From contig OZ237746.1 of the NCBI GenBank assembly GCA_965178125.1, forward strand, positions 1,302,001-1,329,831: a DNA stretch of 27,831 nucleotides, in the 5' to 3' direction. Position 1 is the first letter of the stretch; each line of letters starts with the position of its first letter. Of this stretch, positions 1-27,831 are shown in pieces. Below the pieces are notes generated by a model that was given only the letters and a program-made list of their open reading frames with translations, ran no database searches and was not told where the DNA came from. The translations under genes were made by a program, and so were the position numbers. The DNA comes from Bilabrum cf. latius. Taxonomy: Eukaryota.

Positions 1-2
1 CA

Positions 3-1217
3 AGACTTGGTCTTGGAACTTCAGTGTTCGCTTTAGTGAAAGACGCAAGGAGTGATACAGAATCCTTGCATCTAGCTGCCTCTGCCAGCAGCTCTTCTAG
101 TGCAGGCGGCAGCAGGCGAGTTTACAGTCTGTGCAAGCAATATCGGATGTGCATGGCGATTGAGTGGCTGTCTAACCAAGTAACGTACAATGGACACTTG
201 TCGGCAGGAAGTAAAGCAATTTCAAGGCAAACTATAGGATCCATGTAGACGAGAGCTCTGATGGCACCGCTGGGCGATGCACCTGTAGAGACCGAGCTCT
301 GCGCCCTGTTGGCTGTGTGCAGCCCCAGAGCTGAGTGCTCGGTAGTTTGGCTAGACGGTGGGTATGCAGCACCTCTTGCTGCGACCGTGGCTTCTGCGCT
401 GGTTTCGTAGCCCATATCTGTCTCAGTGACGGCCGCAAGGTTGGCTGGCCCTCGTATAGCTGCTGCCGCGTTGGCGTGCATGCGCGGTGAGTCGGCAGGC
501 ACGGCAGTTGCACCAAGTGCAATTCAAAGGGCCATTTGCTCGTTGTAGTCGCAAAGTACCCCGTCCATGAAACGGTAGACTGACACCAGCAAGGTGAACA
601 TGATGGAATTGCTGCGAGGCGTTGCCGTATTCGTGGCTCTGCTACGCACGGGCATTCCACCTGCTGCCATGTGTTTCATTTCGCCATTTCGATCGCAAGT
701 AGAGGCGATGCGGGAGACTCTGCGCGTTCTTAGTGCGGCTTCTGGCTCTCGTGGGAGTAGTAATGACAGCAAGAGTCCCGCTGTAATTCCTGCGGGGGCT
801 ACAGACGTGACCTCTGGTATAGACTGGCTTTCCTAGCTCGCAACTATAGATGTGGGCACAGTGGATGCGTTTCAAGGGCAGGATCGGGAAGTGGTTGTAC
901 TCAGCATTGTAGACTCTTTTACTGAAAGCCGAAAGTCTGGCAGAGACAGGGATGCAACCACCCTGACACTGCAGGCGCGTCGCGAGCTGGATGGCACTCA
1001 TGTCGGCAACCCGGCCCGGCTGAATGTCAGCATAACACGTGCAAAGAGCAAGCTTGTTCTGTTGGGCTGCATGGGGGATGTCGGCACGAGATCTGAGGAC
1101 TCACAGACCGCTTTTGGTCGCCTGTGCAAGGCTGTTCGAAGGCAGAGGTGGCGGCACGATGCCGGGCGAGCTTTGCATAGTGTGCGGCTTGCTGCGGCGT
1201 GTGAGTTGGATGAGTGA
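3..1217 (+). CDS. DNA2: SF1 DNA2/NAM7-like helicase, C-terminal part (5' end outside window); read with TAG=Gln
   Basis: One frame joins ORFs 24..248, 594..836 and 852..1217 through TAGs at 246, 408, 546, 576 and 834, ending at TGA 1215-1217. Motifs GLGTSVF, QYRM..IEWLSNQVTYNGHL, ISPFRSQV, TVDAFQGQDRE and RLNVSITRAKSKLVLLG. The DNA2 subfamily call comes from motif resemblance only. Confidence 0.8.
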
Positions 1218-1294
1218 GGGATTCATCGCAAGTTGAATTGCTCACTTTATTCTGCTATATACCCGTATAGGACGTTATGGTCGTGCTGAAAGCC

Positions 1295-4200
1295 TCATCT
1301 TCGCTAATAAATGCAACAACTCCCAAATACCTACGTCAGCAGCGCCACCCCAACAGCGGCTGCCAGAATACCCAAGTACTGTTGCCACCTATCCTAGAAC
1401 GTGCTCGCAACAAAGTTCTCCACGAAGCCCTCTGCGGTTACCCTTCGAACACCACCGCTACTGACCCAATCAAAGGATGGACAGCCTGCCTATAGCCTCT
1501 GATCCTCAGTTGCGTGGGCACCAGCCTGGTAGCAGTGTGCTTGTGTCAGGCCCATGGGCGCGTTCGCCATGAAGGTCGGGTTAAAGTATGTTGCAATAAA
1601 TCTTGGAACGGCACTATAGTTTTTCACTCCCCCCACGAAGATGCTATTGAATAGCGCTGCCAGGTTGTTCAGGATTCCTGTGAAAACATGGGCAACCAAA
1701 GCGTCTTCAATGAGCACAGAGCTCAAGTGAGACGTCCAGCTGAGCCACAAGCCACAACCGAGAAAAACTGCAATCATTTCAAGGATGGGCCCAGGCTAGT
1801 CAAGCCTCAGTCCAAGCAGCAAGTACATGATTGGGGCCGTGAGCATGGCAAAGCAGGCGAGGTACAGGGTCTCCTTGATGACCAGAGCAGCGTAGTAGCT
1901 GTGCGGCGAGTACAGTCCAATCGACTGCTCTCTGTAAAACAAAGGACGTGCCTTGAACAACATCGATACCTGCGAGTTGAATACTCCGGCGCAAAAGAAA
2001 CTCATCGTCATCTGGGTCACGCCCAACATGGACAACACAGAGGCTTGGTCGTTCAATGAGTCGCGGCCCTGCCCGAAGAACATAATGCCAACCATGGACC
2101 CGAGAATGACCAGCGTAACAAATCGAGAGCCATTGAACTCGATATTACGAAACTCTCCCACAAGCAGTCGATGCAGCACTAAGCTGAACCTTGCACAGTG
2201 GCCAACCCGCCTGACCTTGATACGACTCGTTGTCTCGGATTGAGAGGTCGGACCTACTGCCAAATGACCGACCTGCCCAGCGTTGTCAAAAGAATGAGCA
2301 CTCTCTATTCCTGCTGAGTCTTTGTCTGACGAGTCAAAGAGACCCAACCCTGGGGCAGCTAGGCCAAAAGGGGCAGATGCTCTGTTGCTCTGCTCGATCG
2401 CCTTTTCCCGATCGTCCTGATACTGCTCGAACAACAGGAGGCTCCTGGCTTGCCGGCTTAAAACTGTCTGAAGATCTTCATCGTGATACTTGGTTGAAGC
2501 TTTGCGGTCGAATCCTCTCGGGGACTTGGGTGATGCCTGTGCTTCCTGCATCGACACAGCCCCTGTGTCTACAGCCAGGCCAGCGAGAGTGGACTTGCCA
2601 CATTTGGCTTGACCAGAAGTGGTACCTCCAACCTGCCGCTGGGCTGATCCAGCCATCCGTAGAGTCCGCTACCTTCCACGTCCACGCTGTGCTGCAGCGC
2701 TGATCTGTGCACAACTGCTCGTCTTCACTGCGCCCATAGCTTCAGTTGCGATCAAAGACACGCGTGCCGACTCAGCCTCCAATTCGTGCAGCATCCACGT
2801 GCCGGGATTCACACGAGGTGGCAAAGGTCGCACCGTCGGACACCGCGTGAAGAAGTCCACCATACGCTGTGCGTTCTATCCAATCGACCCCGAGTACACC
2901 TGGCGACCACCGGGAGACAGCAGCACGAGGTCATCAAAGGCTGTGAACACATCGTAGCTCGGCTGATGAATCGTGCAGACAATGGTGCGGCCCATGTCTG
3001 CAACATTACGCAGGGCCCGCATGACCTGCGAAGCCGACCTGGCGTCCAGTCCTGTGGTTGGCTCGTCAAGAAACAGAATGCTAGGATTGGCTGCCAGCTC
3101 GACTCCCACCGATAGTCGCTTCGACTCTCCAGCAGAAAGCGTGCCAGCTGCTCTGTGTCTTGCGCCCTGCAGCTCTAGAATCTCCAGCAACTCTTCAACT
3201 AGCTGCTTCACGACCTCATCATCGCAACCTAGCTCGGCAGCGAGGCGCAGCCTGGCGTTGAATGCAAGAACCTCCTCTACCTTCGCCGTCGGCATGTGCT
3301 CATCTGTTTGCTCGCAGTAAGCAATCACCGTAGCTCTTCTTCGCTTGCTCAACTCCCTTCCATTGATGCTTATTTTACCCCGTTCCTTGCCTTGGGTCTT
3401 CCTACCTGCCAGCACGTCCATGAGTGTGGTCTTGCCTGCGCCAGTGGCGCCCATTAAACACGTGAGGCGACCAGGAAGCGCCACTCCAGAGACACCTCGT
3501 AGCAGCGGCATGTCTACGGTTGCTGCATTATAAGATTGTTTTCGGGGCTACCCTTCTATACTACGGGCTTTGACTCCTGCATGAGACCTCACCTGGTTAA
3601 ATATAGCGAACTGCCTAGCGTTCTGCTGCATCCGCCTTGCGTGTGCACTCGAGACTCCTACGGAAACTGAGTACCTAACTCCTTCAAACGCAAGTGTACA
3701 TCGCTTGAAGCGGTTCGATATGTGTGACAAACCGCTCCTAGAGACTTGGCTTGCGGCACGTGACCGACCGGGATCGCTGGATACAGAGCTTGTCTCTGAT
3801 GCACTAGCGTACGGGCTCTGGCGGACCGAACCTAACGAGCTACCTGTGGACGCTCGGCGCATCCTAAGCGCCTAGTGAGCCTCAGCATCATGCTCTCGCC
3901 GCGTCCCTGGGCTATAATCGTACTTGCATCCGCGAAGCGCAAGCACCGAAAGAATGAATCCATACAGGATCCACTGCCCGTATAGCATGGGTATTCCCCC
4001 TATCTTCCACGGCAGCTCAGGGTCATGCTGGATCTCAAAAACGTCCAAATAGGCATCTCCTTTCGTCCGGCCAGTCGATGCGGTTGTGATGTTCACTCGC
4101 AGCACAGGGTCAACCAAGCCAGTGTCGTTGCCACCTTGACTGTCTACAACACCGGCAGTGACGTCCGCAGTCACAGTGCCCACCAAACCCAGCGAGTCCT

Positions 4201-6442
4201 GGTACCTTGAGGAGGCAAACTCGTTGATGGCCAGGGATCGAAGCCCCCAGCTAAATGGCGAGATCCAGTAGCACCACCTCATGCCCCAGGGAATGTTGGT
4301 ACGGGTGGCCAAGAATCCACCCATCAGCAGGAAAATGGACGTAAGCAAACCGGTAGCAGACTGCGCTTGCTCCACTGTTGGCAGGGCAAAGGACAGCACC
4401 CTGTCGATGCCAGCCACCGCTAGTTCAACACCAAGCACAATCAAGAAGAAGAATGCCGCTCTTTCAAACTCTGGGACGAAGTCTGCTAGCCAGTATACGA
4501 TACAGCTCAGCACGAGAGAGTTGGCAGCTGCTCTAGGAAGGTGCGTGAGAAATACTGAGAGGACGTAGAACGTCTCGTCCAGCAGACCAGCTCGAGAGAG
4601 CTTGTATGCGACTGCTCTTCCATCAAGCACGGCCTGCATCTCGGGGAAAGCGCCGAATGAAACGTTGAGGCATGCGAACATAGCCATCTGCGGTGAGGTG
4701 GGAATGGGGTACAAACCTGCCCAGGTGTAGGATCCATGCTATGAATCTGTCTATTGCCTGCCAGTAGGAGGTTGCTCACCCCAATTCGAAGCTGAAAGTC
4801 ATCAAGGGACGGGCGGAAGAACACAAGGCCCACTATGGTGGCGAGCACAGCTGTCTGAACAAGTCGAGATATCACAAGCAGTGGATTTCGCATCGTCAGG
4901 AGCATCTACCTACTCATCACAGCGGCCAGTCTGGCACATGCTCCCTATCCAGCTCCCCATCCGTACTTGGCTTGCAGGAATTGGCTGGCCTGCACGGATT
5001 GCTGCAGGTCGTCCCAGTCGCTTGTGGTCTGGCCGTCCTGGGTGCGTCCCAAATACACCCTGCCACCAGCACGCCTGTTTGAGTCGGAGAAACGGGCTGG
5101 TGACTGCCTAGCCAGGGTACGCTACTGCATCGCAGATCCATACCAGGCCAGAGAGTTTCCTGCAACGGAGAGCTCGGCTGGAGTGGGCATGGCGCTGCGA
5201 TCGAATCGGCGGTCGGGGGGCAGTGCCAGAACTGGGTCGGTCACCAAGCCGGCCAGCCAGTCGGCAAAGTCGCCCTCTTCCGGTGCGGAGAAGCCCCTAC
5301 TCGCGAGGTTGTCCTCTAGCTCCTCCCTGGGCCCGTGGTAGATCACGTGCCCATCGCTGAGGAGCACCACGTCGTCGAAGAGCGCATACGTCTCTGGTGT
5401 GGGCTGCTTGAGTGCGAGGACAACGGTGGCGTCCGACACCTTGGCATAATCGCAAAGAGTCTGAACAACATACTCCGCCACCGCTGCATCAAGCCCTGCG
5501 GTAATCTCGTCGCCACAGAACACCCTGGGGGCTGCGATGAGAGCCTCCGCAACTGAGAGGCGGCGGCGCTGGCCACCACTAATGCCACGAACGTTGCGAC
5601 CTCCAACAATGGTGTCTGCGCAGCTCTCTAGGCCGAATAGTCTAATGAAAGCCTCTGCTCTGGTTTGTGGGAAGGAGAACCCCGGGTCAGTGGGGCCGTC
5701 AGCTGCTGCAGCAACTGAGCCGAGAGAAGAGGCTGCTGCAAACTACAGCGTCTCGCGAACAGTGAAGCGAGCCTCATGCAGGTCGTTTTGCGCACAGTAT
5801 GACGCCACTCGTCGAACATCAGCTCCTTGCCCATGCAGCTCAGCAGGATTGGTGCCGTTGAATCGCACGTTCCCGTCAAACGGCTGTTCATTTCCAGCGA
5901 TAACCCTGAGCAGTGTCGAAGATCCCCCGCCCGGGCCTGCCAAAACCAGAGTTGTTGTACCAGGCCTTATTTTCACTGCTCGTGGAATGTAGGCGAAGCA
6001 AAAGCTGCAGTTGTGGAAATGTCAGAGCATTTAGCACCATCTATCAAGCATATCGCCAAGGCCACGGTGATGACTTACTGGTGGTACCGGCGAGTGCATC
6101 AAAGGCAACATGATCAGATGGTTGATAGCTACCACAATAGAGCATGTTCCAGAGCCAGCTAGCGAGGTTCATCGGCTCTGGTGCGCGCCGTTCAGTGGAC
6201 CTCTTGACCTGAACACCATCCAAGTGCACCAGAATACGCGGTGGCATCGCTTCCGCGCATTCATGCTCAATTTTTTGGTACAGTTGCCAGTTCTATCGGC
6301 CTTTTGGCATCGTTGAAACCTTTGCATCGGACGTCACACTTGCATACAGTGGATTCACCACCGTCGAGGTAGTTGGCTGCTTAATCGCCCGTCCTGCAGT
6401 CTTTTTCACGGAATCTTCACTACTTTCTGGAAAAAATTGCAT
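1295..6442 (-). CDS. Full-size ABCG/PDR-type transporter (NBD1-TMD1-NBD2-TMD2), ~1650 aa, exons 6442-6079, 5975-4780 and 4687-1295; TAG=Gln
   Basis: NBD1 has GPGGGSSTLL, TVRETL*FA, CADTIVG, RGISGGQRRR, DEITAGLD and LKQPTPETYALFDD. NBD2 has LMGATGAGKTTLMDVLAGRKT, LFLDEPTTGLD and TIHQPS. Contains 14 in-frame TAGs and ends IY*RR-TGA. The spliced length of 4953 nt is divisible by 3. The start ATG at 6442 is the first after an upstream in-frame TGA. Confidence 0.9.
4688..4779 (-). other. Spliceosomal intron (92 nt) in the ABCG gene
   Basis: GTGAGC...CACCGCAG. Removal joins FQLRIG to MAMFACLNVSFGAFPEM and explains the frame change. Confidence 0.85.
5976..6078 (-). other. Spliceosomal intron (103 nt) in the ABCG gene
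   Basis: GTAAGT...GAGCAG. Removal gives FDALAGTT-M-KIRPGTTTLVLAGPG, the expected lead-in to Walker A. Confidence 0.8.
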
Positions 6443-6620
6443 CTTGTAGGTTCAAAACAGCTCTCGAAGCGATGCAAGGCCGGTTATGACTGCGTTCTCG
6501 AATCAAGAATTCCGCCGCGCGCAACCAACGGAACCTGCGAGTCAGGTGTTCCGTTGGTATCAGCTACAAGTGCTCCTGGATCCAAAAGTCAACTGCACGC
6601 ACCACACCACGTAGCAGGAT

Positions 6621-8042
6621 TCACTCATTCTTATCGTGCCCGCCTGCATGAGCATCTACTTCTCTTCCTTGCCTGCCTTTGCCCGCGGGTACCTCTTCGC
6701 TGCTCGCGTACCAGTCATCGTACTCGGGGTGCTTCTCGCGCATCAGCGGGTGCGAGCTGCCGTACCGCATAAATTGCTGGCAGAACCCGACCAGCGATGT
6801 ATCGAAGTGGTGCTGCATTGGTGGACAGCTGCCCTCCACTGCGAGCAGCACGCGCACTCCCCTCTTCCTGCCGCGCACACACACCTCCACGTCCTCGAAT
6901 GCAGCCGAGGGGAATCCCTCGTCAAAGCCACCGGCTTGCTGCAGCACCTGGACATGCGCGCACATGTTGCAGGTGGGCAGGTAGAGCGCCTCGCGCACCC
7001 TGCCCTCGCCTTGCCTGGCCTCTGGCCCGCCGGGCTGGGCGACCGACCCCATAGCTGGATCTGGATCCGAGCGGGTCTCAACGCCGGCACTGTCACGATC
7101 GCTCTCAGGATCTTCTTCATGTACCTGCTCGTGCGCCCGTCCCTTTCCCTGCTCCTATTCATCTTCACGTGCCTCTTCATGTACCTGTGTCTGCAGAGCT
7201 AGTGTCCTTGGGTTCAGCGTGCCCATGAGGTCGTGGAAGCGAGACACATAGTCAGTGCCATGCGCGCGCGTGATGCCTCCCAGCAGGCAGGGTCCGTGCT
7301 CGCGCTGCAGACAGGCCATGCCACGGGCCCATGCGGGGCTGCCCTCGCAGTCCGCGTCCATGAAGAGAACCGACGTGGCGCCCAGGCGCAGTGCAGTTGT
7401 CCATCCGGTGTTGCGGGCTGCACCAGGGCCTAGGTTGCGGCTGTGTCGGAGCAGCAGCACGCGGTGCTATTCCCTCTGGTGTGAGCCCTCCTGTGAGTCA
7501 TCTCTCCTCCTAGACTTCAAAGCGGCAGGTGATCCATCGTCGATGACGACCACCGGAACAGGCCTAACAGAATCTACGGCTCGCCACAAGCTCTTAACGT
7601 CTTCCGGCGTTCGTGCAAGCACGGGAATGATAATAAGCGCATGCTCATTATCGTTCACTGCTTGCGCGAATGCAGGAATCGATGACTGCATTGAATGTCC
7701 GGCAAGTGGAAGTGTTTCGATAGGATCCAGATCCGAAGCACCAAGACAAGGCTACTGACCCCCGTCGCGATCTGCTTCGTTGATAGATACATGTGAGAGC
7801 TAGAGGTCCTTGTGCGTACTGGACGACAGGCTGCATAGCTCGCGCAGTGCTTGCTGTCTGCAGACAGCGATGCGCCGGCGCTCCGCTTGCCACCACTGCT
7901 GTCCAAAATGGTAGCAAGTTACCGCAAGAATCGCTAAGACAACGTTCAAGGTACGATCACTGTACGGAGATGCATGAAGTACATGTATCACCGCATAGTA
8001 TACGGACAGGGCAAGGGAGCTTGCCGACAGGGTCCAAGTCAT
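6621..8042 (-). CDS. Glycosyltransferase family 2 (GT-A fold) with N-terminal hydrophobic segments, ~473 aa; TAG=Gln
   Basis: One frame through TAGs at 7800, 7752, 7467 and 7155, ending TGA. Motifs IIIPV, VVVIDDGS, NLGPGAARNTG, VLFMDADC and GGFDEGF..AFEDVE. The start is uncertain. Confidence 0.82.
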
Positions 8043-8316
8043 TTCACGAACAGCCCGGGTCTTGCAGATTTGCTTCACGTCCAATTGCAAGTCAACAAAC
8101 TAGATGCTAGAGGCGATCCCCTAGCGTCTAATTTGTAAACTTTAATTGTGATCCGACTCGTAAGTCGACAAAAAGAATCCGGAATCCGGATATCTCGGAT
8201 ATCTGGATCCCCGATATGAGTTCCGGTTTGGCTTCAGTCACAAATCTGGATCTAGATCATCGAGTGGATAAAGTACATCCCCAGACGTAGCAAACAGCAA
8301 CTTCATAACAATTGTT

Positions 8317-8507
8317 CATCGCCGCGGGCCATCCACCGCGCATTCCCCCCGTCCACCAGACAGCGCTGTCATGACACGTACACTCCCAGCACATCACCGC
8401 GGGCCATCCACCGCGCATTCCCCCCGTCCACCAGACAGCGCTGTCATGACACGTACACTCCCAGCACATCACCGCGGGCCATCCACCGCGCATTCCCCCC
8501 GTCCACC
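8317..8507. repeat. 75-bp subtelomeric tandem repeat, ~2.5 copies
   Basis: GGGCCATCCACCGCGCATTCCCCCCGTCCACC recurs at 8326, 8401 and 8476. Confidence 0.9.
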
Positions 8508-8702
8508 GCCGCTCCCACCAACCATGTGCTGCCATCCACGGCTCACTCAGCCCTTCCACCGCCGCTCCCACCAACCATGTGCTGCCATCCACGGCTCACT
8601 CAGCCCTTCCACCGCCGCTCCCACCAACCATGTGCTGCCATCCACGGCTCACTCAGCCCTTCCACCGCCGCTCCCACCAACCATGTGCTGCCATCCACGG
8701 CT
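8503..8702. repeat. 53-bp subtelomeric tandem repeat, ~3.8 copies
   Basis: CCACCGCCGCTCCCACCAACCATGTGCTGCCATCCACGGCT recurs at 8503, 8556, 8609 and 8662. Confidence 0.9.
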
Positions 8703-8707
8703 TGGAG

Positions 8708-8785
8708 TTAGGGTTAGGGTTAGGGTTAGGGTTAGGGTTAGGGTTAGGGTTAGGGTTAGGGTTAGGGTTAGGGTTAGGGTTAGGG
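8708..8785 (+). repeat. Interstitial telomeric tract 1, (TTAGGG)13
   Basis: Perfect TTAGGG repeats. Confidence 0.97.
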
Positions 8786-8979
8786 TATCTGGGGGTCATG
8801 TTAGGATCGGGGCACGCCCTTTTTTGGACCAAAAATAAAAACGCCGCACATTATATATATTTAGATAGCCCTTGATCAGGAGAGTTGATATATGGTTGGT
8901 TGGCGGCACTCATTTCCAATATTGAGCGAGATATGGGGAGGTTTCGGGTCACCAGTTGAGCGGATGATTTTGGCAGGTC
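8786..8979. mobile_element. Short diverged telomere insert (copy 0)
   Basis: Same TTAGGG|TATCT junction as the other inserts, with partial terminal similarity (TATCT..GTCA.G..AGG.TCGGGG). Flanked by telomere tracts. Confidence 0.5.
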
Positions 8980-9387
8980 TTAGGGTTAGGGTTAGGGTTA
9001 GGGTTAGGGTTAGGGTTAGGGTTAGGGTTAGGGTTAGGGTTAGGGTTAGGGTTAGGGTTAGGGTTAGGGTTAGGGTTAGGGTTAGGGTTAGGGTTAGGGT
9101 TAGGGTTAGGGTTAGGGTTAGGGTTAGGGTTAGGGTTAGGGTTAGGGTTAGGGTTAGGGTTAGGGTTAGGGTTAGGGTTAGGGTTAGGGTTAGGGTTAGG
9201 GTTAGGGTTAGGGTTAGGGTTAGGGTTAGGGTTAGGGTTAGGGTTAGGGTTAGGGTTAGGGTTAGGGTTAGGGTTAGGGTTAGGGTTAGGGTTAGGGTTA
9301 GGGTTAGGGTTAGGGTTAGGGTTAGGGTTAGGGTTAGGGTTAGGGTTAGGGTTAGGGTTAGGGTTAGGGTTAGGGTTAGGGTTAGGG
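8980..9387 (+). repeat. Interstitial telomeric tract 2 (~68 units)
   Basis: TTAGGG repeats. Confidence 0.97.
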
Positions 9388-10695
9388 TATCTAATATAAA
9401 GTCAGGGACAGGGTCGGGGAAAAAATATTTTCATCTTCATTTTTTTGTCGAAAATGTGCCCTCTGCGATCTCAGCAACTAGAATAGGTATGAAGATGATT
9501 CAATTTGTTTTGGGACGGCCTAGGGCCATATCATGGGGCAAATGTTCCCCAGGTTCCGTTTTGACCGAGCGGCGACGATACTGGCTGATGAAGATTTACA
9601 TGCCGAAAATGTGCCCTCTGCGATCTCAGCAACTAGAATAGGTATGAAGATGATTCAAACTGTTTTGGGACGGCCTAGGGCCATATCATGGGGCAAATGT
9701 TCCCCAGGTTCCGTTTTGACCGCGCGGCGACGATACTGGCTGATGAAGATTTACATGCCGAAAATGTGCCCTCTGCGATCTCAGCAACTAGAATAGGTAT
9801 GAAGATGATTCAAACTGTTTTGAGACGGCCTAGGGCCATATCATGGGGCAAATGTTCCCCAGGTTCCGTTTTGACCGCGCGGCGACGATACTGGCTGATG
9901 AAGATTTACATGCCGAAAATGTGCCCTCTGCGATCTCAGCAACTAGAATAGGTATGAAGATGATTCAAACTGTTTTGGGACGGCCTAGGGCCATATCATG
10001 GGGCAAATGTTCCCCAGGTTCCGTTTTGACCGCGCGGCGACGATACTGGCTGATGAAGATTTACATGCCGAAAATGTGCCCTCTGCGATCTCAGCAACTA
10101 GAATAGGTATGAAGATGATTCAAACTGTTTTGGGATGGCCTAGGGCCATATCATGGGGCAAATGTTCCCCAGGTTCCGTTTTGACCGCGCGGCGACGATA
10201 CTGGCTGATGAAGATTTACATGCCGAAAATGTGCCCTCTGCGATCTCAGCAACTAGAATAGGTATGAAGATGATTCAAACTGTTTTGGGACGGCCTAGGG
10301 CCATATCATGGGGCAAATGTTCCCCAGGTTCCGTTTTGACCGCGCGGCGACGATACTGGCTGATGAAGATTTACATGCCGAAAATGTGCCCTCTGCGATC
10401 TCAGCAACTAGAATAGGTATGAAGATGATTCAAACTGTTTTGGGACGGCCTAGGGCCATATCATGGGGCAAATGTTCCCCAGGTTCCGTTTTGACCGCGC
10501 GGCGACGATACTGGCTGATGAAGATTTACATGCCGAAAATGTGCCCTCTGCGATCTCAGCAACTAGAATAGCCGTCCCCGTGAAATCTCCCAGAAATTTC
10601 TGGATTCCGGGTCCACATTTGCGACCCAACGACACTCAGGGTCAAATATATCTAAAACAAATGAGTGGAATATAACTATAACCACTAAATAGATT
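9388..10695. mobile_element. Telomere-inserted element copy A1 (non-coding: terminus, 155-bp array, ~124-bp tail)
   Basis: Begins TATCTAATATAAAGTCAGGGACAGGGTCGGGGAAAAAATATTTTCATCTTCA and is flanked by telomere tracts. Confidence 0.75.
9449..10571. repeat. 155-bp satellite subfamily A, ~7.2 units
   Basis: Near-identical units with period 155 (ORF starts at 9533, 9688, 9843 and so on). Confidence 0.95.
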
Positions 10696-11343
10696 TTAGG
10701 GTTAGGGTTAGGGTAGGGTTAGGGTTAGGGTTAGGGTTAGGGTTAGGGTTAGGGTTAGGGTTAGGGTTAGGGTTAGGGTTAGGGTTAGGGTTAGGGTTAG
10801 GGTTAGGGTTAGGGTTAGGGTTAGGGTTAGGGTTAGGGTTAGGGTTAGGGTTAGGGTTAGGGTTAGGGTTAGGGTTAGGGTTAGGGTTAGGGTTAGGGTT
10901 AGGGTTAGGGTTAGGGTTAGGGTTAGGGTTAGGGTTAGGGTTAGGGTTAGGGTTAGGGTTAGGGTTAGGGTTAGGGTTAGGGTTAGGGTTAGGGTTAGGG
11001 TTAGGGTTAGGGTTAGGGTTAGGGTTAGGGTTAGGGTTAGGGTTAGGGTTAGGGTTAGGGTTAGGGTTAGGGTTAGGGTTAGGGTTAGGGTTAGGGTTAG
11101 GGTTAGGGTTAGGGGTTAGGGTTAGGGTTAGGGTTAGGGTTAGGGTTAGGGTTAGGGTTAGGGTTAGGGTTAGGGTTAGGGTTAGGGTTAGGGTTAGGGT
11201 TAGGGTTAGGGTTAGGGTTAGGGTTAGGGTTAGGGTTAGGGTTAGGGTTAGGGTTAGGGTTAGGGTTAGGGTTAGGGTTAGGGTTAGGGTTAGGGTTAGG
11301 GTTAGGGTTAGGGTTAGGGTTAGGGTTAGGGTTAGGGTTAGGG
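10696..11343 (+). repeat. Interstitial telomeric tract 3
   Basis: TTAGGG with variants TAGGG (10714) and TTAGGGG (11109). Confidence 0.97.
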
Positions 11344-11876
11344 TATCTAATATAAAGTCAGGGACAGGGTCGGGGAAAAAATATTTTCATCTTCATTTTT
11401 TTGTCGAAAATGTGCCCTCTGCGATCTCAGCAACTAGAATAGGTATGAAGATGATTCAAACTGTTTTGGGACGGCCTAGGGCCATATCATGGGGCAAATG
11501 TTCCCCAGGTTCCGTTTTGACCGAGCGGCGACGATACTGGCTGATGAAGATTTACATGCCGAAAATGTGCCCTCTGCGATCTCAGCAACTAGAATAGGTA
11601 TGAAGATGATTCAAACTGTTTTGGGACGGCCTAGGGCCATATCATGGGGCAAATGTTCCCCAGGTTCCGTTTTGACCGCGCGGCGACGATACTGGCTGAT
11701 GAAGATTTACATGCCGAAAATGTGCCCTCTGCGATCTCAGCAACTAGAATAGCCGTCCCCGTGAAATCTCCCAGAAATTTCTGGATTCCGGGTCCACATT
11801 TGCGACCCAACGACACTCAGGGTCAAATATATCTAAAACAAATGAGTGGAATATAACTATAACCACTAAATAGATT
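11344..11876. mobile_element. Telomere-inserted element copy A2 (~2.2 units of 155-bp subfamily A, same tail as A1)
   Basis: Both ends are identical to A1. Confidence 0.75.
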
Positions 11877-13249
11877 TTAGGGTTAGGGTTAGGGTAGGGT
11901 TAGGGTTAGGGTTAGGGTTAGGGTTAGGGTTAGGGTTAGGGTTAGGGTTAGGGTTAGGGTTAGGGTTAGGGTTAGGGTTAGGGTTAGGGTTAGGGTTAGG
12001 GTTAGGGTTAGGGTTAGGGTTAGGGTTAGGGTTAGGGTTAGGGTTAGGGTTAGGGTTAGGGTTAGGGTTAGGGTTAGGGTTAGGGTTAGGGTTAGGGTTA
12101 GGGTTAGGGTTAGGGTTAGGGTTAGGGTTAGGGTTAGGGTTAGGGTTAGGGTTAGGGTTAGGGTTAGGGTTAGGGTTAGGGTTAGGGTTAGGGTTAGGGT
12201 TAGGGTTAGGGTTAGGGTTAGGGTTAGGGTTAGGGTTAGGGTTAGGGTTAGGGTTAGGGTTAGGGTTAGGGTTAGGGTTAGGGTTAGGGTTAGGGTTAGG
12301 GTTAGGGTTAGGGTTAGGGTTAGGGTTAGGGTTAGGGTTAGGGTTAGGGTTAGGGTTAGGGTTAGGGTTAGGGTTAGGGTTAGGGTTAGGGTTAGGGTTA
12401 GGGTTAGGGTTAGGGTTAGGGTTAGGGTTAGGGTTAGGGTTAGGGTTAGGGTTAGGGTTAGGGTTAGGGTTAGGGTTAGGGTTAGGGTTAGGGTTAGGGT
12501 TAGGGTTAGGGTTAGGGTTAGGGTTAGGGTTAGGGTTAGGGTTAGGGTTAGGGTTAGGGTTAGGGTTAGGGTTAGGGTTAGGGTTAGGGTTAGGGTTAGG
12601 GTTAGGGTTAGGGTTAGGGTTAGGGTTAGGGTTAGGGTTAGGGTTAGGGTTAGGGTTAGGGTTAGGGTTAGGGTTAGGGTTAGGGTTAGGGTTAGGGTTA
12701 GGGTTAGGGTTAGGGTTAGGGTTAGGGTTAGGGTTAGGGTTAGGGTTAGGGTTAGGGTTAGGGTTAGGGTTAGGGTTAGGGTTAGGGTTAGGGTTAGGGT
12801 TAGGGTTAGGGTTAGGGTTAGGGTTAGGGTTAGGGTTAGGGTTAGGGTTAGGGTTAGGGTTAGGGTTAGGGTTAGGGTTAGGGTTAGGGTTAGGGTTAGG
12901 GTTAGGGTTAGGGTTAGGGTTAGGGTTAGGGTTAGGGTTAGGGTTAGGGTTAGGGTTAGGGTTAGGGTTAGGGTTAGGGTTAGGGTTAGGGTTAGGGTTA
13001 GGGTTAGGGTTAGGGTTAGGGTTAGGGTTAGGGTTAGGGTTAGGGTTAGGGTTAGGGTTAGGGTTAGGGTTAGGGTTAGGGTTAGGGTTAGGGTTAGGGT
13101 TAGGGTTAGGGTTAGGGTTAGGGTTAGGGTTAGGGTTAGGGTTAGGGTTAGGGTTAGGGTTAGGGTTAGGGTTAGGGTTAGGGTTAGGGTTAGGGTTAGG
13201 GTTAGGGTTAGGGTTAGGGTTAGGGTTAGGGTTAGGGTTAGGGTTAGGG
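11877..13249 (+). repeat. Interstitial telomeric tract 4 (~1.37 kb)
   Basis: TTAGGG with a TAGGG variant at 11895. Confidence 0.97.
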
Positions 13250-13310
13250 TATCTATTATAAAGTCAGGGACAGGGTCGGGGAAAAATATTTTCATCTTCA
13301 CTTTTTGACA

Positions 13311-15117
13311 AAATCCTGCGGGATACGATCTCGGCAACCACAGGAGATATGAAGACCGTTCAAATTGCGTTGGGACGGCCTAGGGCCACATCATTGGCCA
13401 AATGTTCCTCAGGTTCCGCTTTTGACGCGCGGCGCCAATATTGGGCCTTGAAGATTTTCATGCTGAAATCCTGCGGGATACGATCTCGGCAACCACAGGA
13501 GATATGAAGACCGTTCAAATTGCGTTGGGACGGCCTAGGGCCACAACATTGGCCAAATGTTCCTCAGGTTCCGCTTTTGACGCGCGGCGCCAATATTGGG
13601 CCTTGAAGATTTTCATGCTGAAATCCTGCGGGATACGATCTCGGCAACCACAGGAGATATGAAGACCGTTCAAATTGCGTTGGGACGGCCTAGGGCCACA
13701 ACATTGGCCAAATGTTCCTCAGGTTCCGCTTTTGACGCGCGGCGCCAATATTGGGCCTTGAAGATTTTCATGCTGAAATCCTGCGGGATACGATCTCGGC
13801 AACCACAGGAGATATGAAGACCGTTAAAATTGCATTGGGACGGCCTAGAGCCACATCATTGGCCAAATGTTCCTCAGGTTCCGCTTTTGACGCGCGGCGC
13901 CAATATTGGGCCTTGAAGATTTTCATGCTGAAATCCTGCGGGATACGATCTCGGCAACCACAGGAGATATGAAGACCGTTCAAATTGCGTTGGGACGGCC
14001 TAGGGCCACATCATTGGCCAAATGTTCCTCAGGTTCCGCTTTTGACGCGCGGCGCCAATATTGGGCCTTGAAGATTTTCATGCTGAAATCCTGCGGGATA
14101 CGATCTCGGCAACCACAGGAGATATGAAGACCGTTCAAATTGCGTTGGGACGGCCTAGAGCCACATCATTGGCCAAATGTTCCTCAGGTTCCGCTTTTGA
14201 CGCGCGGCGCCAATATTGGGCCTTGAAGATTTTCATGCTGAAATCCTGCGGGATACGATCTCGGCAACCACAGGAGATATGAAGACCGTTCAAATTGCGT
14301 TGGGACGGCCTAGGGCCACATCATTGGCCAAATGTTCCTCAGGTTCCGCTTTTGACGCGCGGCGCCAATATTGGGCCTTGAAGATTTTCATGCTGAAATC
14401 CTGCGGGATACGATCTCGGCAACCACAGGAGATATGAAGACCGTTCAAATTGCGTTGGGACGGCCTAGAGCCACATCATTGGCCAAATGTTCCTCAGGTT
14501 CCGCTTTTGACGCGCGGCGCCAATATTGGGCCTTGAAGATTTTCATGCTGAAATCCTGCGGGATACGATCTCGGCAACCACAGGAGATATGAAGACCGTT
14601 CAAATTGCGTTGGGACGGCCTAGGGCCACAACATTGGCCAAATGTTCCTCAGGTTCCGCTTTTGACGCGCAGCGCCAATATTGGGCCTTGAAGATTTTCA
14701 TGCTGAAATCCTGCGGGATACGATCTCGGCAACCACAGGAGATATGAAGACCGTTCAAATTGCGTTGGGACGGCCTAGGGCCACATCATTGGCCAAATGT
14801 TCCTCAGGTTCCGCTTTTGACGCGCGGCGCCAATATTGGGCCTTGAAGATTTTCATGCTGAAATCCTGCGGGATACGATCTCGGCAACCACAGGAGATAT
14901 GAAGACCGTTAAAATTGCATTGGGACGGCCTAGGGCCACATCATTGGCCAAATGTTCCTCAGGTTCCGCTTTTGACGCACGGCGCCAATATTGGGCCTTG
15001 AAGATTTTCATGCTGAAATCCTGCGGGATACGATCTCGGCAACCACAGGAGATATGAAGACCGTTCAAATTGCGTTGGGACGGCCTAGGGCCACAACATT
15101 GGCCAAATGTTCCTCAG
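13311..15117. repeat. 155-bp satellite subfamily B, ~11.7 units
   Basis: Period 155. Shares TTGGGACGGCCTAGG, CAAATGTTCC.CAGGTTCCG and CGCGCGGCG with subfamilies A and C. Confidence 0.95.
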
Positions 15118-15154
15118 ATTCATTGTACTTCATTCAGTGCAAGTATGGCGTATT

Positions 15155-17432: not shown

Positions 17433-17697
17433 AGGTGTGGGTTTGGGAATCCAGTGGTTATTGACCGATATTCAATGTTGTGGCTCGTTCTACGTAGCCA
17501 TATGTATGCGTTAACCTCCTTGGTCGATACATCGCTTTGACATCAGGTATTCGTTGGCTTATAGTCAAGACTAAATAGATTGCGTCCTGGCTCCTACTAT
17601 CCCGTCCTAACGGGTCACTGGCTGGCACTCTGGCAAGCTCCTCTCACAAGCTGGCCCAGCTGCCACTGACCTCAATTGGTATCCGCCTGGCTGCTTT

Positions 17698-19233
17698 TCA
17701 CTCGTTATCGGAGGAGGGTTCCGCATCGACAGCTGCCAGGAGCGCCTCAACAGCGTCCACGTCTGCTGCATTGAGATCTCCTTCCGCCGTCTTCTCGAGG
17801 GCCGTCATCAGGCCTACGAGCGTGCCCAACCCGTCGTCCCTCTCTTGAATTGTTTCCTGCACGTCCTCGAGCATGTCGTCGAGAGTTCGGCTGACGCCCA
17901 GCGCTATGTCATCGCAGGCAGCGAGGATGCGGTCCACCAGGTGCCGCTGCTAGTCGGTGAAGCCGTTGTCATCCACTCCACCGTCGTTCTCAGAGTCGTC
18001 TTGCTGGTTCTGGGCCTCGTTCTCTTCTTCCTCATCCAGCTCGTCCTGATCCTCCTCGTCCTGCTGCACGAGTTCTATCGGAGCCTCATCCTCGTCCTCT
18101 TCATCGGCTGCGTCTGCGTGGTATCGATCACCGATCTCCTCTTCATCCTCCTCAGAGTCCTGTCGAGGCAGTGATGCTGCTGCTCCACTCCTTGCGCCTC
18201 TTGCTCCCCTCTTGTCCTGGCCAACGGCGTGGCGAGCTCCTCCGCCATAGCCCGGTTGGAGAATGGGCGATCGCTTGTGCTGTATCTTAGCCCGAGGTGC
18301 CGCTTCAGTCGCCTTCCTGCGCTCCGGTTCTGCCGGTTGCGCACCTTCATCCCTCGGCTTTCCCTTTGACTTTCCCTTTGACTTGCCCGCGGCCTTGGTC
18401 CTGGCCTTCAATTTGGCCTTTGCCTTTTCCCTGGCCTTGGCCTCCGCTCTCCGCTTGGGGCCGAGTAGGTCGTTGTTCAGTCGCTCGGTCTATGAGTCGC
18501 TGGACTCTGAGCCGTCTGAATCTTGCTCGCCTCGTTTCCTCTGGGCCTTGTAGGCACTGTGGTCCGCGACACCGTCGTCGGGGTCGTCCTCGTCGTCGTC
18601 GACCATGGCACTCCGTTTGTCCTTGCCAGCACGGGGTGCTCCACTCGGCGAAGCAGCAGCGGCTCCCGCAGAAGCATCTTGGTCCCCTGCGGCTGCCGCG
18701 GCAGAGTCCTTGACTGCCATGTCAAACACGTCTTGGAACACAGCCTGCATGCCTCCACGCGCACGCACAGAGGCTTTCCCAGCTCCGTAGTCGCAGACGA
18801 ACTTGATCGCGGTCTTGTAGTTCCTCCGCAAGCCATCCATGCCTGCCTTGAACCAAGGATTGTGGCTGGTAGAGTAGCCGCTGTCGCGCAGGCCCATGAG
18901 CATCTAATTCATCTTGCGGTAGCCTGGCGAGCTGGTGCCGCTAGTTGATGCAGCCGGATATAGGCGGTGACTCAGCACCTTCAGCATGTCAGGCGGCAGA
19001 TCGGACTCATTCAGGTCCAGCATGGCATCCACGCAGGCTTTGATGCCCTCTTTCTTGGTCCCCTAGTAGTGCTCGGTAGACCCGCAGAGTAACCCGCAAT
19101 CTTGGTGGAGGCCCACGAGGGAGATCAGCAGGACTTGCTTGGCAGCAGACGTGCTGACGCCTGAAGCCAGGGCAGCCACGACGGGGCGGGAGGCCTTGGT
19201 GTGCTTGACGCTGTAGCTCTTTGCGGCGGCCAT
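17698..19233 (-). CDS. Element ORF1, 511-aa hypothetical protein with Lys/Ala-rich and Asp/Glu-rich tracts; TAG=Gln
   Basis: ATG at 19233 (MAAAKSYSVK), in-frame TAGs at 19063, 18904, 18490 and 17950, TGA at 17698. The frame is preserved in diverged copies C1 and C2. Confidence 0.75.
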
Positions 19234-19442
19234 AGTACTCTGCGGTGCTGGGGGAACACGGGTAAGGCCACGAACAGGCGCTTGGATGCGGCAGCGAACA
19301 CGGACATGAGACCCAGGGAGTCTCCAGGGCAAGCTCGAGGGCAAAGAAAAAGAAGGCCACGACCCCGCGCACTCGGTCTCAGACCCGGGACCCATGATGT
19401 TAGGTCGATCCCCCAGTCGTGGGGGGGCGGACCCCAGCCCAG

Positions 19443-19457
19443 AAAAAAATTAAAAAA
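19443..19457 (-). terminator. Putative Pol III terminator (TTTTTTAATTTTTTT)
   Basis: T runs start 3 nt after the tRNA-like sequence. Confidence 0.55.
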
Positions 19458-19460
19458 GAT

Positions 19461-19540
19461 CGCCCCAACGGGAATCGAACCTCGGGGGTAGGCCTGGGTG
19501 CGATTACCAACCGTACGCAATACCACTACACCACCACAGC
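19461..19540 (-). ncRNA. tRNA-like or pseudo-tRNA Pol III unit (nominal anticodon GGT)
   Basis: A box TGGTGTAGTGG, B box GGTTCGATTCC, 7-nt loop TTGGTAA and downstream T6/T7 runs. Acceptor and T stems pair poorly. Confidence 0.6.
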
Positions 19541-22370: not shown

Positions 22371-22647
22371 TTAGGGTTAGGGTTAGGGTTAGGGGTTAGG
22401 GTTAGGGTTAGGGTTAGGGTTAGGGTTAGGGTTAGGGTTAGGGTTAGGGTTAGGGTTAGGGTTAGGGTTAGGGTTAGGGTTAGGGTTAGGGTTAGGGTTA
22501 GGGTTAGGGTTAGGGTTAGGGTTAGGGTTAGGGTTAGGGTTAGGGTTAGGGTTAGGGTTAGGGTTAGGGTTAGGGTTAGGGTTAGGGTTAGGGTTAGGGT
22601 TAGGGTTAGGGTTAGGGTTAGGGTTAGGGTTAGGGTTAGGGTTAGGG
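22371..22647 (+). repeat. Interstitial telomeric tract 5
   Basis: TTAGGG with one TTAGGGG variant near 22389. Confidence 0.97.
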
Positions 22648-24045: not shown

Positions 24046-24090
24046 TTAGGGTAGGGGTTAGGGGGGGGTAGGGGGTTTAGGTTAGGGTTA

Positions 24091-26577: not shown

Positions 26578-27831
26578 GGGTTAGGGTTAGGTTAGGGTTT
26601 TAGGTTAGGGTTAGGGTTAGGGTTAGGGTTAGGGTTAGGGTTAGGGTTAGGGTTAGGGTTAGGGTTAGGGTTAGGGTTAGGGTTAGGGTTAGGGTTAGGG
26701 TTAGGGTTAGGGTTAGGGTTAGGGTTAGGGTTAGGGTTAGGGTTAGGGTTAGGGTTAGGGTTAGGGTTAGGGTTAGGGTTAGGGTTAGGGTTAGGGTTAG
26801 GGTTAGGGTTAGGGTTAGGGTTAGGGTTAGGGTTAGGGTTAGGGTTAGGGTTAGGGTTAGGGTTAGGGTTAGGGTTAGGGTTAGGGTTAGGGTTAGGGTT
26901 AGGGTTAGGGTTAGGGTTAGGGTTAGGGTTAGGGTTAGGGTTAGGGTTAGGGTTAGGGTTAGGGTTAGGGTTAGGGTTAGGGTTAGGGTTAGGGTTAGGG
27001 TTAGGGTTAGGGTTAGGGTTAGGGTTAGGGTTAGGGTTAGGGTTAGGGTTAGGGTTAGGGTTAGGGTTAGGGTTAGGGTTAGGGTTAGGGTTAGGGTTAG
27101 GGTTAGGGTTAGGGTTAGGGTTAGGGTTAGGGTTAGGGTTAGGGTTAGGGTTAGGGTTAGGGTTAGGGTTAGGGTTAGGGTTAGGGTTAGGGTTAGGGTT
27201 AGGGTTAGGGTTAGGGTTAGGGTTAGGGTTAGGGTTAGGGTTAGGGTTAGGGTTAGGGTTAGGGTTAGGGTTAGGGTTAGGGTTAGGGTTAGGGTTAGGG
27301 TTAGGGTTAGGGTTAGGGTTAGGGTTAGGGTTAGGGTTAGGGTTAGGGTTAGGGTTAGGGTTAGGGTTAGGGTTAGGGTTAGGGTTAGGGTTAGGGTTAG
27401 GGTTAGGGTTAGGGTTAGGGTTAGGGTTAGGGTTAGGGTTAGGGTTAGGGTTAGGGTTAGGGTTAGGGTTAGGGTTAGGGTTAGGGTTAGGGTTAGGGTT
27501 AGGGTTAGGGTTAGGGTTAGGGTTAGGGTTAGGGTTAGGGTTAGGGTTAGGGTTAGGGTTAGGGTTAGGGTTAGGGTTAGGGTTAGGGTTAGGGTTAGGG
27601 TTAGGGTTAGGGTTAGGGTTAGGGTTAGGGTTAGGGTTAGGGTTAGGGTTAGGGTTAGGGTTAGGGTTAGGGTTAGGGTTAGGGTTAGGGTTAGGGTTAG
27701 GGTTAGGGTTAGGGTTAGGGTTAGGGTTAGGGTTAGGGTTAGGGTTAGGGTTAGGGTTAGGGTTAGGGTTAGGGTTAGGGTTAGGGTTAGGGTTAGGGTT
27801 AGGGTTAGGGTTAGGGTTAGGGTTAGGGTTA
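26578..27831 (+). repeat. Terminal telomere (TTAGGG)n, probable chromosome end
   Basis: G-rich strand runs 5'->3' to the end of the window. Confidence 0.92.

What the first reader, a model, noticed from the sequence alone, without database searches (positions are those of the whole stretch)
3..8042. Non-standard nuclear genetic code: TAG read as sense, most likely Gln
Seen: three unrelated genes are interrupted only by TAG (5 in the helicase, 14 in the ABCG, 4 in the GT2), show no frameshifts beyond two canonical introns, and all end in TGA. Pseudogene decay would give a mix of TAA, TGA and indels. The amino acid is inferred from PDR-family context: VMSR*MLLTMRN (4906) fits the R-Q/E-x-x-L-x-x-R-N motif, C-terminal IY*RR (1304) fits the NFQRR/HQKR ending, and TVRETL*FA (5743) tolerates Q, E or D.
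Basis: partly seen in the sequence, partly recalled or inferred. Interest (0 to 1): 0.9.

Follow-up and report, generated by a model that had tools for sequence, protein, structure and literature searches.

The report
TAG stop codon read as glutamine
Genes at this chromosome end are interrupted only by the stop codon TAG, which the cell very probably reads as glutamine, a rare but already known kind of change to the nuclear genetic code.

Summary
Three homology-supported genes carry 5, 14 and 4 in-frame TAG codons: an SF1 helicase C-terminal part, a full-size ABCG transporter and a GT2 glycosyltransferase. None has an in-frame TAA or TGA, and all three end in TGA. A fourth ORF (17698-19395) shows the same pattern with 4 TAG.

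Spliced contigs from two other public runs skip exactly the two GT..AG introns. They keep all 14 ABCG TAGs unchanged, so editing and splicing-out are excluded. Random nonsense decay gives 23 of 23 TAG with P of about 1e-6 or less. RIP indices are negative.

A 48%-identical ABCG on an unrelated metagenome contig (L001) also has TAG-only interruptions, at different positions, and ends in TGA.

Glutamine is the best reading. There are reciprocal TAG/CAG or TAG/CAA matches with L001, and Q stands at two helicase TAG sites in 79-85% identical relatives.

TAA never occurs in frame, so this may be a UAG-only code. The sample cannot show whether TAA terminates. The lineage is undetermined: a non-ciliate eukaryote with TTAGGG telomeres. 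No tRNA or eRF1 could be examined.

The scan earlier noted a TAG=Gln, TAA=stop giant virus on other DNA.

The parts
3..1217 (+). C-terminal 404 codons of an SF1 (AAA_11/AAA_12, Dna2/Upf1-like) helicase gene, cut by the window start. It has 5 in-frame TAG (246-248, 408-410, 546-548, 576-578, 834-836) and a TGA stop at 1215-1217.
   Evidence: Translation. Pfam AAA_12, E 1.1e-26, spans residues 184-356 across two TAGs. TAG coordinates. Relatives P0139, P0140, P0138 and P0288 are 79-91% identical. They have Q at sites 136 and 278, and their ORFs end just before sites 82 and 182.
1295..4687 (-). ABCG exon 3 (TMD1, NBD2, TMD2). It has 9 in-frame TAG and a TGA stop at 1295-1297.
   Evidence: Pfam ABC2_membrane and ABC_tran. 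X5 contig 1286-4479 and X6 contig 1283-4458 match with 0 differences.
4688..4779 (-). ABCG intron 2, 92 nt, GTGAGC..CAG. It contains in-frame TAG triplets and shifts the frame if retained.
   Evidence: One X5 contig skips it (table 5). Sequence.
4780..5975 (-). ABCG exon 2 (NBD1 and the start of TMD1). It has 4 in-frame TAG, at 5743, 5122, 4945 and 4906.
   Evidence: RNA-type contigs X5 4780-5116 and 5323-5975, and X6 5013-5347, match with 0 differences.
5976..6078 (-). ABCG intron 1, 103 nt, GTAAGT..CAG. It contains TGA, TAG and TAA triplets.
   Evidence: Skipped by contigs of X5 and X6 (table 5). Sequence.
6079..6442 (-). ABCG exon 1, with the ATG at 6442-6440 and 1 in-frame TAG at 6293-6295.
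   Evidence: X5 and X6 contigs reach 6436 and 6471.
6621..8042 (-). GT2-family glycosyltransferase gene. It has 4 in-frame TAG (7800, 7752, 7467, 7155) and a TGA stop at 6621-6623.
   Evidence: PF00535, E 2.3e-10, spans one TAG; P0126 is 46% identical over residues 152-487, across two TAGs. X5 contigs 6668-6879 and 6878-7993 match with 0 differences.
17698..19395 (-). 565-codon ORF of unknown family with an acidic low-complexity tail. It has 4 in-frame TAG (19063, 18904, 18490, 17950) and a TGA stop.
   Evidence: (no Pfam). At the off-frame TGA+TAA rate (142 of 5,092, about 2.8% per codon), an open frame of this length is very unlikely by chance; this is my own arithmetic on that call's counts. 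No homology or RNA support was obtained.
26578..27831 (+). Terminal TTAGGG array of 209 copies, with the G-rich strand running towards the window end. It marks a eukaryotic, non-ciliate-type chromosome end.

Best explanation
The organism reads UAG as glutamine in nuclear genes and terminates at UGA.

Shown here: TAG lies in frame, at about 0.9% of codons and about 18% of inferred Gln codons, in expressed, spliced, homology-supported genes. It exchanges with CAG or CAA between homologues.

Inferred from other lineages: a tRNA-Gln with anticodon CUA, charged by GlnRS, decodes UAG, and eRF1 has lost UAG recognition.

TAA is absent from all coding frames examined. The code is therefore more likely UAG-only (my estimate about 0.55) than the common UAR-to-Gln code. 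This sample cannot show whether TAA terminates.
For: 1. 23 in-frame TAG, 0 TAA and 0 TGA in 2,543 internal codons of three genes, all ending in TGA. Off-frame rates predict about 60 TGA and 11 TAA.
2. Homology runs across the TAGs. The ABCG aligns end to end with 119 homologues. NBD2 and TMD2 (Pfam ABC_tran and ABC2_membrane) lie downstream of seven or more TAGs. Pfam domains span TAGs in the helicase and GT2.
3. Contigs of runs X5 and X6 skip both introns at GT..AG. They leave gaps at the intergenic spacers, so they behave as mRNA. They cover all 14 ABCG TAGs and the 4 GT2 TAGs with 0 differences. None of the 10 variant places listed is a TAG codon.
4. Nonsense-decay models give P(23 of 23 TAG) between 8e-8 and 1e-6, including a model with only C>T and G>A changes. 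RIP indices are negative: TpA/ApT 0.70 and (CpA+TpG)/(ApC+GpT) 1.40.
5. Second locus: L001 encodes an ABCG that is 47.8% identical over 1,512 aligned pairs. Its introns lie elsewhere, and it has 4 in-frame TAG at other positions and a TGA stop. Its upstream gene fragment has 6 TAG and a TGA stop.
6. Amino acid.
   - The 17 TAG sites, taken in both directions, pair with Q 6, E 4, D 2, and T, S, K, A, G once each.
   - Log-likelihoods are Q -37.6, E -42.6, L -79.8, W -97.7.
   - In the control, 17 real Q sites were called Q in 442 of 500 trials and 17 real E sites were called Q in 5 of 500.
   - The family profile over 9 occupied columns gives Q +2.0, E -0.4, D -2.5.
   - Helicase relatives at 79-85% identity have Q at window sites 136 and 278.
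7. 6 of 6 gene ends are TGA: helicase, ABCG, GT2, ORF 17698, and two in L001.
8. The bases after TAG share no context: the +4 base is C 11, A 7, G 7, T 2.
Against: - Only about 8 kb of genes plus one 6.9-kb contig were available. No whole genome is held, so genome-wide use is extrapolated.
- No tRNA gene was found in the window or in L001-L003, and eRF1 was not seen.
- Most TAG sites lie in variable or gapped columns: 5 of the 14 ABCG sites fall in columns gapped in most homologues. The Q-over-E margin from the ABCG alone is therefore modest.
- GT2 site 208 pairs with L and site 312 with K in its closest relative.
- A Q-to-TAG correspondence is also what CAG>TAG nonsense mutation would give. 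The amino-acid tests alone do not separate a code change from decay.
- The genes sit next to a subtelomere, where pseudogenes are common.
- One X5 contig lacks one base at 124 in the helicase poly-Ser tract, at depth 6.4.
- The ORF 20115-22325 ends at TAG under the standard code. It lies in a 70% GC island with overlapping ORFs in other frames, has no Pfam match, and stops 46 nt before an interstitial TTAGGG array.
- The run kinds of X5 and X6 are guesses. The tool labels X5 'RNA? (probably DNA)'.
Confidence: 0.87

Rival explanations
1. The common UAR-to-Gln code (NCBI table 6 type). Both TAA and TAG encode Gln and TGA is the only stop. TAA is simply rare in this GC-rich genome, so none fell in the sample.
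For: All 6 gene ends seen are TGA and none is TAA, as in UAR-to-Gln lineages where TGA is the functional stop (PMC8271138, passages). TAA is the rarest of the three triplets in every frame. Most known non-ciliate cases are UAR-to-Gln (PMC5304391 and PMC11687900, passages).
Against: There are 0 in-frame TAA against 37 in-frame TAG: 23, plus 4 in ORF 17698, plus 10 in L001. CAA makes up 38 of 107 standard Gln codons. If TAA:TAG followed CAA:CAG, P(0 TAA) would be 4e-5 for the 23 sites and 9e-8 for the 37. TAA does occur off frame (22 times) and in intron 1.
Confidence: 0.3
2. Subtelomeric pseudogenes of an organism with the standard code. The TAGs are premature stops produced by a biased mutation process (CAG>TAG or TGG>TAG, RIP-like or deaminase-like), and the transcripts are non-functional.
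For: The genes lie within 8 kb of subtelomeric repeats. TAG pairs with CAG or CAA in homologues, as C>T decay would also give. There is a possible 1-nt deletion at 124 in one run.
Against: - No TAA, no TGA and no frameshift occur in about 7.6 kb of coding sequence.
- P(all TAG) is 1e-6 or less even under C>T and G>A changes only.
- There is no RIP signature.
- The NBD2 ABC_tran domain is still detected downstream of many TAGs.
- Predicted proteins of the roughly 85% identical helicase copies stop at the same two sites, and their ORFs stay intact.
- An independent locus at 48% identity shows the same TAG-only pattern at different sites.
Confidence: 0.03
3. TAG is a sense codon for another residue (Glu, Ser, Leu, Trp or Lys), or is decoded ambiguously.
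For: E is the second-best reading. Four of 17 pairwise partners are E. The family columns at ABCG sites 199 and 478 are mostly D or E. UAG=Ser, Leu and Glu codes exist in other eukaryotes (PMC11687900, passages).
Against: Q is best in both likelihood tests. Real E sites mimic the observed score in only 5 of 500 resamples. Ser is 18 nats worse, Leu 42 and Trp 60. Relatives at 79-85% identity show Q at 2 of 2 testable sites.
Confidence: 0.05
4. Standard code with recoding at the RNA or ribosome level: mRNA editing of UAG (for example to UGG or CAG), or programmed readthrough at each site.
For: None specific. Stop-loss editing and readthrough are known phenomena (my own knowledge).
Against: Spliced contigs keep every TAG unchanged. 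The 27 sites share no downstream context. A density of about 1% of codons is far beyond known programmed readthrough.
Confidence: 0.01

Closest known systems
UAG-only to Gln nuclear codes (NCBI table 15 type): Iotanema spirale (Fornicata), Protocruzia tuzeti, and two phyllopharyngean ciliate lineages (PMC5304391 and PMC11687900, passages read)
   Same: UAG is in frame at Gln positions, UGA terminates, and UAA is not seen as a sense codon.
   Different: In those lineages UAA is shown to terminate, and in I. spirale it is the main stop. Here 0 of 6 gene ends are TAA. This DNA has long TTAGGG telomere arrays, 55-57% GC, roughly 100-nt GT-AG introns and a full-size PDR-type ABCG. On my own knowledge of ciliate telomeres and composition, that does not look like a ciliate. 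Its lineage is unknown.
UAR to Gln codes (NCBI table 6 type): Ulvophyceae (Dasycladales, Trentepohliales + Cladophorales + Blastophysa), hexamitin diplomonads, oxymonads, many ciliates, and the aphelid Amoeboaphelidium protococcarum (PMC8271138, PMC11687900, PMC6299283, passages read)
   Same: A stop codon is read as Gln, and TGA is the stop in every gene seen.
   Different: No in-frame TAA among 37 reassigned codons. If the window does come from one of these lineages, the finding is a rediscovery, with the added point that TAA is hardly used.
UAG to Ser (Scotinosphaera), UAG to Leu (rhizarian exLh, some ciliates), UAR to Glu (Blastocrithidia, peritrichs)
   Same: UAG is reassigned, in some of these independently of UAA.
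   Different: The amino-acid tests here reject Ser, Leu and Trp and disfavour Glu.

Membership tests
UAG-only to Gln nuclear code (table 15 type) | In-frame UAG inside homology-supported coding regions of several unrelated genes | tested here: met
   23 TAG in three genes, with Pfam or homologue alignments spanning them. L001 adds 4.
UAG-only to Gln nuclear code (table 15 type) | UAG positions correspond to Gln in homologues | tested here: met
   Q is best in the profile and pairwise likelihoods, with a control. Q stands at 2 of 2 sites in 79-85% identical relatives. There are six reciprocal TAG/CAG or TAG/CAA pairs with L001.
UAG-only to Gln nuclear code (table 15 type) | UAA is kept as a terminator and is not used as a sense codon | tested here: inconclusive
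   0 in-frame TAA against 37 TAG, but 0 of 6 gene ends are TAA. 'Not sense' is supported. 'Terminator' is not shown.
UAG-only to Gln nuclear code (table 15 type) | UGA terminates | tested here: met
   6 of 6 gene ends are TGA. The ABCG C-terminus coincides with that of L001.
UAG-only to Gln nuclear code (table 15 type) | A tRNA-Gln with anticodon CUA and an altered eRF1 | not testable with these tools
   No genome is held. No tRNA was found in the window or in L001-L003.
UAR to Gln nuclear code (table 6 type) | In-frame UAA as well as UAG at Gln positions | tested here: not met
   0 TAA in 2,543 internal codons, ORF 17698 and L001. P is 4e-5 to 9e-8 if TAA:TAG tracked CAA:CAG. The sample is small, so a rare TAA cannot be excluded.
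Decayed or RIP-mutated pseudogenes | A mixture of stop types and indels; for RIP, TpA/ApT above about 0.89 and (CpA+TpG)/(ApC+GpT) below about 1.03 (thresholds recalled from memory) | tested here: not met
   Only TAG and no frameshift. The indices are 0.70 and 1.40.
mRNA editing or splicing that removes the stops | TAG absent from mature transcripts | tested here: not met
   Intron-skipping contigs of X5 and X6 retain all the TAGs they cover, with 0 differences. These are contigs, not raw reads, and the RNA label is a guess.

The most novel reading that the evidence does not exclude
A so far unrecognised non-ciliate eukaryotic lineage has uncoupled UAG from UAA. It has TTAGGG telomeres and a compact, GC-rich genome. 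Its ABCG sits in an unnamed environmental clade next to oomycete PDRs. UAG supplies about a fifth of its Gln codons, UAA is kept out of coding frames, and UGA ends every gene seen. This would be one of very few UAG-only-to-Gln cases outside ciliates. It could also be a candidate host type for the TAG=Gln, TAA=stop giant virus that the scan noted on other DNA.
Probability: 0.35. Interest if true: 0.75.

Novelty: new member of a known kind. Interest (0 to 1): 0.6.

Why it matters
Nuclear code changes are rare. Cases where UAG and UAA have different fates are rarer still, and they bear on how release-factor specificity and suppressor tRNAs co-evolve.

In practice, any annotation of this assembly with the standard code will shatter its genes. 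The public protein collection already holds the helicase relatives as fragments that break at TAG sites.

If the organism belongs to a lineage whose code is already published, the value is limited to correct annotation and to the observation that TAA is avoided.

Tried and rejected
- Whole-genome route: no genome is held, so there was no Codetta-like inference, no tRNA-Gln(CUA) search and no eRF1 search.
- tRNA scans of the window and L001-L003 found none. The Rfam scan of the window found none.
- Earlier scan notes for this genome and for look-alike stretches: none.
- Run search: no RNA holder is listed as such. The kinds of X5, X6 and X7 are guesses.
- Helicase search among longer proteins gave only 3 weak hits, carrying Dna2-type Pfam families.
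- GT2 TAG sites were uninformative against the closest relative P0126, pairing with L and K.
The look-up of database protein P0126 returned only bacterial GT2 clusters and gave no lineage clue.
- L002 and L003 (28-29% identical) were not used.
- A repeat search of the whole window only re-listed the satellites.
- ABCG tree (FastTree, 121 sequences, 1,249 columns, unrooted; P0004 was left out because it is longer than 1,700 aa). The window and L001 group together (support 1.0) inside a clade of 24, of which the other 22 are unnamed environmental sequences. That clade lies next to oomycete PDRs (0.865). This is a weak lead on lineage, not a placement.
- Literature searches for a stramenopile or other non-ciliate UAG-to-Gln report beyond those cited found none in the held library. 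Subscription papers and supplements were not visible. That includes the original aphelid report and any later aphelid genome paper.

Full report
**What the window is.** The 27.8-kb window is a eukaryotic chromosome end.
- A terminal array of 209 TTAGGG copies lies at 26578-27831, with the G-rich strand running outward.
- Four interstitial TTAGGG arrays, 155-nt satellites and a 22-nt satellite with 103 copies lie inward of it.
- The first 8.1 kb is ordinary gene-dense DNA of 55-60% GC.
- No whole genome is held for the window. This scan had no earlier notes on this genome.

**The observation.** Read with TAG open, the left 8 kb holds three genes.
- The last 404 codons of an SF1 helicase lie at 3-1217 on the plus strand (Pfam AAA_12, E 1.1e-26).
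- A full-size ABCG transporter of 1,650 residues lies on the minus strand (two ABC_tran and two ABC2_membrane regions).
- A GT2 glycosyltransferase lies at 8042-6621 on the minus strand.
- There is no internal TAA or TGA in 2,543 codons, and all three end in TGA.
- On the same strands, the two other frames hold TAG 66, TAA 22 and TGA 120 in 5,092 positions. An unconstrained frame would therefore carry about 60 TGA and 11 TAA. TAG in frame (23) is close to its unconstrained rate of 33.
- A fourth ORF of 565 codons (17698-19395, minus strand, no Pfam family) has 4 TAG and ends in TGA.

**Introns and transcripts.** The ABCG frame is broken twice.
- Contigs of public runs X5 and X6 join 4687 to 4780 and 5975 to 6079. 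They skip 92 and 103 nt that begin GT and end AG on the gene's strand.
- The DNA-type run X1 shows no such joint.
- The same runs leave the intergenic spacers 1256-1285 and 6437-6667 uncovered, so they behave as mRNA assemblies. Their kind is only a guess on record, and the tool marks X5 'probably DNA'.
- Their contigs cover all 14 ABCG TAGs and the 4 GT2 TAGs with 0 differences. X5 covers 1286-4479, 4505-4687 joined to 4780-5116, 5323-5975 joined to 6079-6436, 6668-6879 and 6878-7993. X6 covers 5013-5347.
- None of the 10 variant places listed by the tool is a TAG codon.
- The TAGs are therefore neither spliced out nor edited in these assemblies.
- Intron 1 itself contains TGA, TAG and TAA triplets.

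**Decay versus code.**
- I took each TAG back to CAG and counted all one-step routes to a stop. TAG makes up 49-55% of nonsense mutations under transition:transversion ratios of 1-5, or under C>T and G>A changes only. 23 of 23 TAG then has P between 8e-8 and 1e-6.
- RIP-type indices are negative: TpA/ApT is 0.70 and (CpA+TpG)/(ApC+GpT) is 1.40 over 1-8100. The thresholds are recalled from memory.
- The Pfam ABC_tran domain of NBD2 (exon-3 residues 407-554) lies downstream of seven TAGs.
- The bases following the 27 TAGs share no context. That argues against programmed readthrough.

**Independent loci.**
- A scan of metagenome contigs found L001, 6,898 nt and 57% GC. It encodes an ABCG that is 47.8% identical to the window's over 1,512 aligned pairs.
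- Its introns lie at other positions. It has four in-frame TAG at positions different from the window's, no other stop in the aligned exons, and a TGA stop.
- Its upstream gene fragment, which is Q-, M- and G-rich, has six TAG and a TGA stop.
- An exhaustive profile search with the helicase found three fragments at 79-91% identity, and a cluster look-up found a fourth at 85%.
- P0139 ends exactly before window site 82. P0140 ends exactly before site 182 and has Q at site 136. P0138 and P0288 have Q at site 278.
- These proteins were predicted under the standard code. Their break points imply stop-type codons at two of the window's TAG sites in copies that have otherwise diverged by about 15%.

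**Which amino acid.**
- Against 119 ABCG homologues, nine TAG columns are occupied. The summed profile log-odds are Q +2.0, E -0.4, D -2.5, L -10.9 and W -20.7.
- Against L001, 17 TAG sites taken in both directions pair with Q 6, E 4, D 2, and T, S, K, A, G once each. Log-likelihoods from the alignment's own substitution table are Q -37.6, E -42.6, D -47.1, S -55.7, L -79.8 and W -97.7.
- Two rows lay in L001's intron and were dropped. Site 199 was re-read as E from the splice junction.
- In a resampling control, 17 true Q sites were called Q in 442 of 500 trials, and 17 true E sites were called Q in 5 of 500.
- Window TAG 478, 1639 and 1648 are CAG in L001. L001's TAGs at 2411, 3714 and 3936 face window CAG, CAG and CAA.
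- With the 2 of 2 Q in the close helicase relatives, Gln is well supported and Glu is the only serious alternative.
The column at 4906 is E 72 and Q 40. The column at 1304 is Q 89 of 119. The column at 5743 is D 66, E 30 and Q 12.

**TAA.**
- No TAA is in frame among 37 reassigned codons (23, plus 4, plus 10). CAA supplies 38 of 107 standard Gln codons. If TAA:TAG followed that ratio, P is 4e-5 for 23 sites or 9e-8 for 37.
- None of the six gene ends is TAA either.
- The data therefore lean towards a UAG-only reassignment but do not show that TAA terminates.

**Against my reading.**
- The sample is small and lies next to a subtelomere.
- Most TAG sites are in variable columns.
- One X5 contig lacks a base at 124.
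- ORF 20115-22325 ends at TAG under the standard code. It lies in a 70% GC island with overlapping ORFs, has no family match, and stops 46 nt before an interstitial telomere array. It may be a truncated remnant.

**Comparison with what is known.**
- I read passages of four papers: PMC5304391, PMC11687900, PMC8271138 and PMC6299283.
- UAG-only-to-Gln is reported for Iotanema spirale, Protocruzia tuzeti and two phyllopharyngean ciliate lineages.
- UAR-to-Gln is reported for several ulvophycean orders, hexamitins, oxymonads, many ciliates and Amoeboaphelidium protococcarum.
- UAG is also read as Ser in Scotinosphaera and as Leu in a rhizarian.
- Six literature searches found no further non-ciliate case in the held library. 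Supplements and subscription papers were not visible.
- The lineage here is undetermined. In an unrooted ABCG tree, the window and L001 sit in a clade of 24 whose other 22 members are unnamed environmental sequences, next to oomycete PDRs.
- The kind of code is known. Whether this lineage is new cannot be told from the window.

**Mechanism.**
- Shown: TAG is a frequent in-frame codon in expressed, conserved genes and interchanges with CAG and CAA. TGA ends the genes.
- Inferred from established cases (PMC5304391, passage on Tetrahymena tRNA-Gln(CUA)): a tRNA-Gln with anticodon CUA reads UAG alone, and eRF1 no longer recognises UAG.

**Verdict.** My confidence that TAG is read as Gln is about 0.87. 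This is a new member of a known kind, and I score interest at 0.6.

Noticed in passing
window 8300-27831: Layered chromosome-end architecture. Five TTAGGG arrays all face the same way (8980-9388, 10696-13250, 22371-22648, 24073-24730, and the terminal 26578-27831). They are separated by two families of 155-nt satellites, 75-nt and 53-nt repeats (8317-8702) and a short GTTAGG variant array (8707-8786). This suggests repeated breakage and healing, or subtelomere duplication.
   Followed up: partly
window 22650-26800: Tandem duplication with a period of 2,082 nt. ORFs and the 155-nt arrays recur at that exact offset: 22710-23469 against 24792-25551, and 23695 against 25777. Each unit ends in a TTAGGG array.
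   Followed up: no
window 15156-17431: A 22-nt satellite of 103.5 copies at 99% identity. It produces spurious ORFs of 771-849 codons on the plus strand.
   Followed up: no
window 20115-22325: A 736-codon ORF in a 68-72% GC island with no Pfam family. It ends at TAG 46 nt before an interstitial telomere array. Read with TAG open, it runs on through the TTAGGG repeats to 22736. It may be a gene truncated by a healed break.
   Followed up: partly
window 5900-5940 (ABCG NBD1) and L001 about 1170-1210: The N-terminal Walker A of both ABCGs lacks the lysine: GPGGGSSTLL in the window and NPGGGSSTLL in L001. The second NBD keeps GAxGAGKTTL. This suggests a degenerate first ATP site shared by this clade.
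   Followed up: no
window 2918-2992, 3384-3454, 5250-5409: Extra contigs in all four runs match only these conserved NBD stretches at about 85-90% identity and then run on unlike the window. The organism therefore carries paralogous ABCG genes (tables 3, 7, 8).
   Followed up: no
window 124: One X5 contig (depth 6.4) lacks one base inside the helicase poly-Ser (AGC) tract. This may be an assembly slip, or a frame-shifting polymorphism in that run (table 4).
   Followed up: no
window 1218-1294 and 6443-6620: Very short spacers. There are 77 nt between the convergent helicase and ABCG stops, and 178 nt between the GT2 stop and the ABCG start. This indicates a compact genome.
   Followed up: no
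window 6621-8042: Apart from one unnamed 46%-identical relative, the GT2's detectable relatives and look-alike clusters are bacterial-type GT2 enzymes. It also carries a charged insert of about 60 residues. It may have been acquired from bacteria.
   Followed up: no
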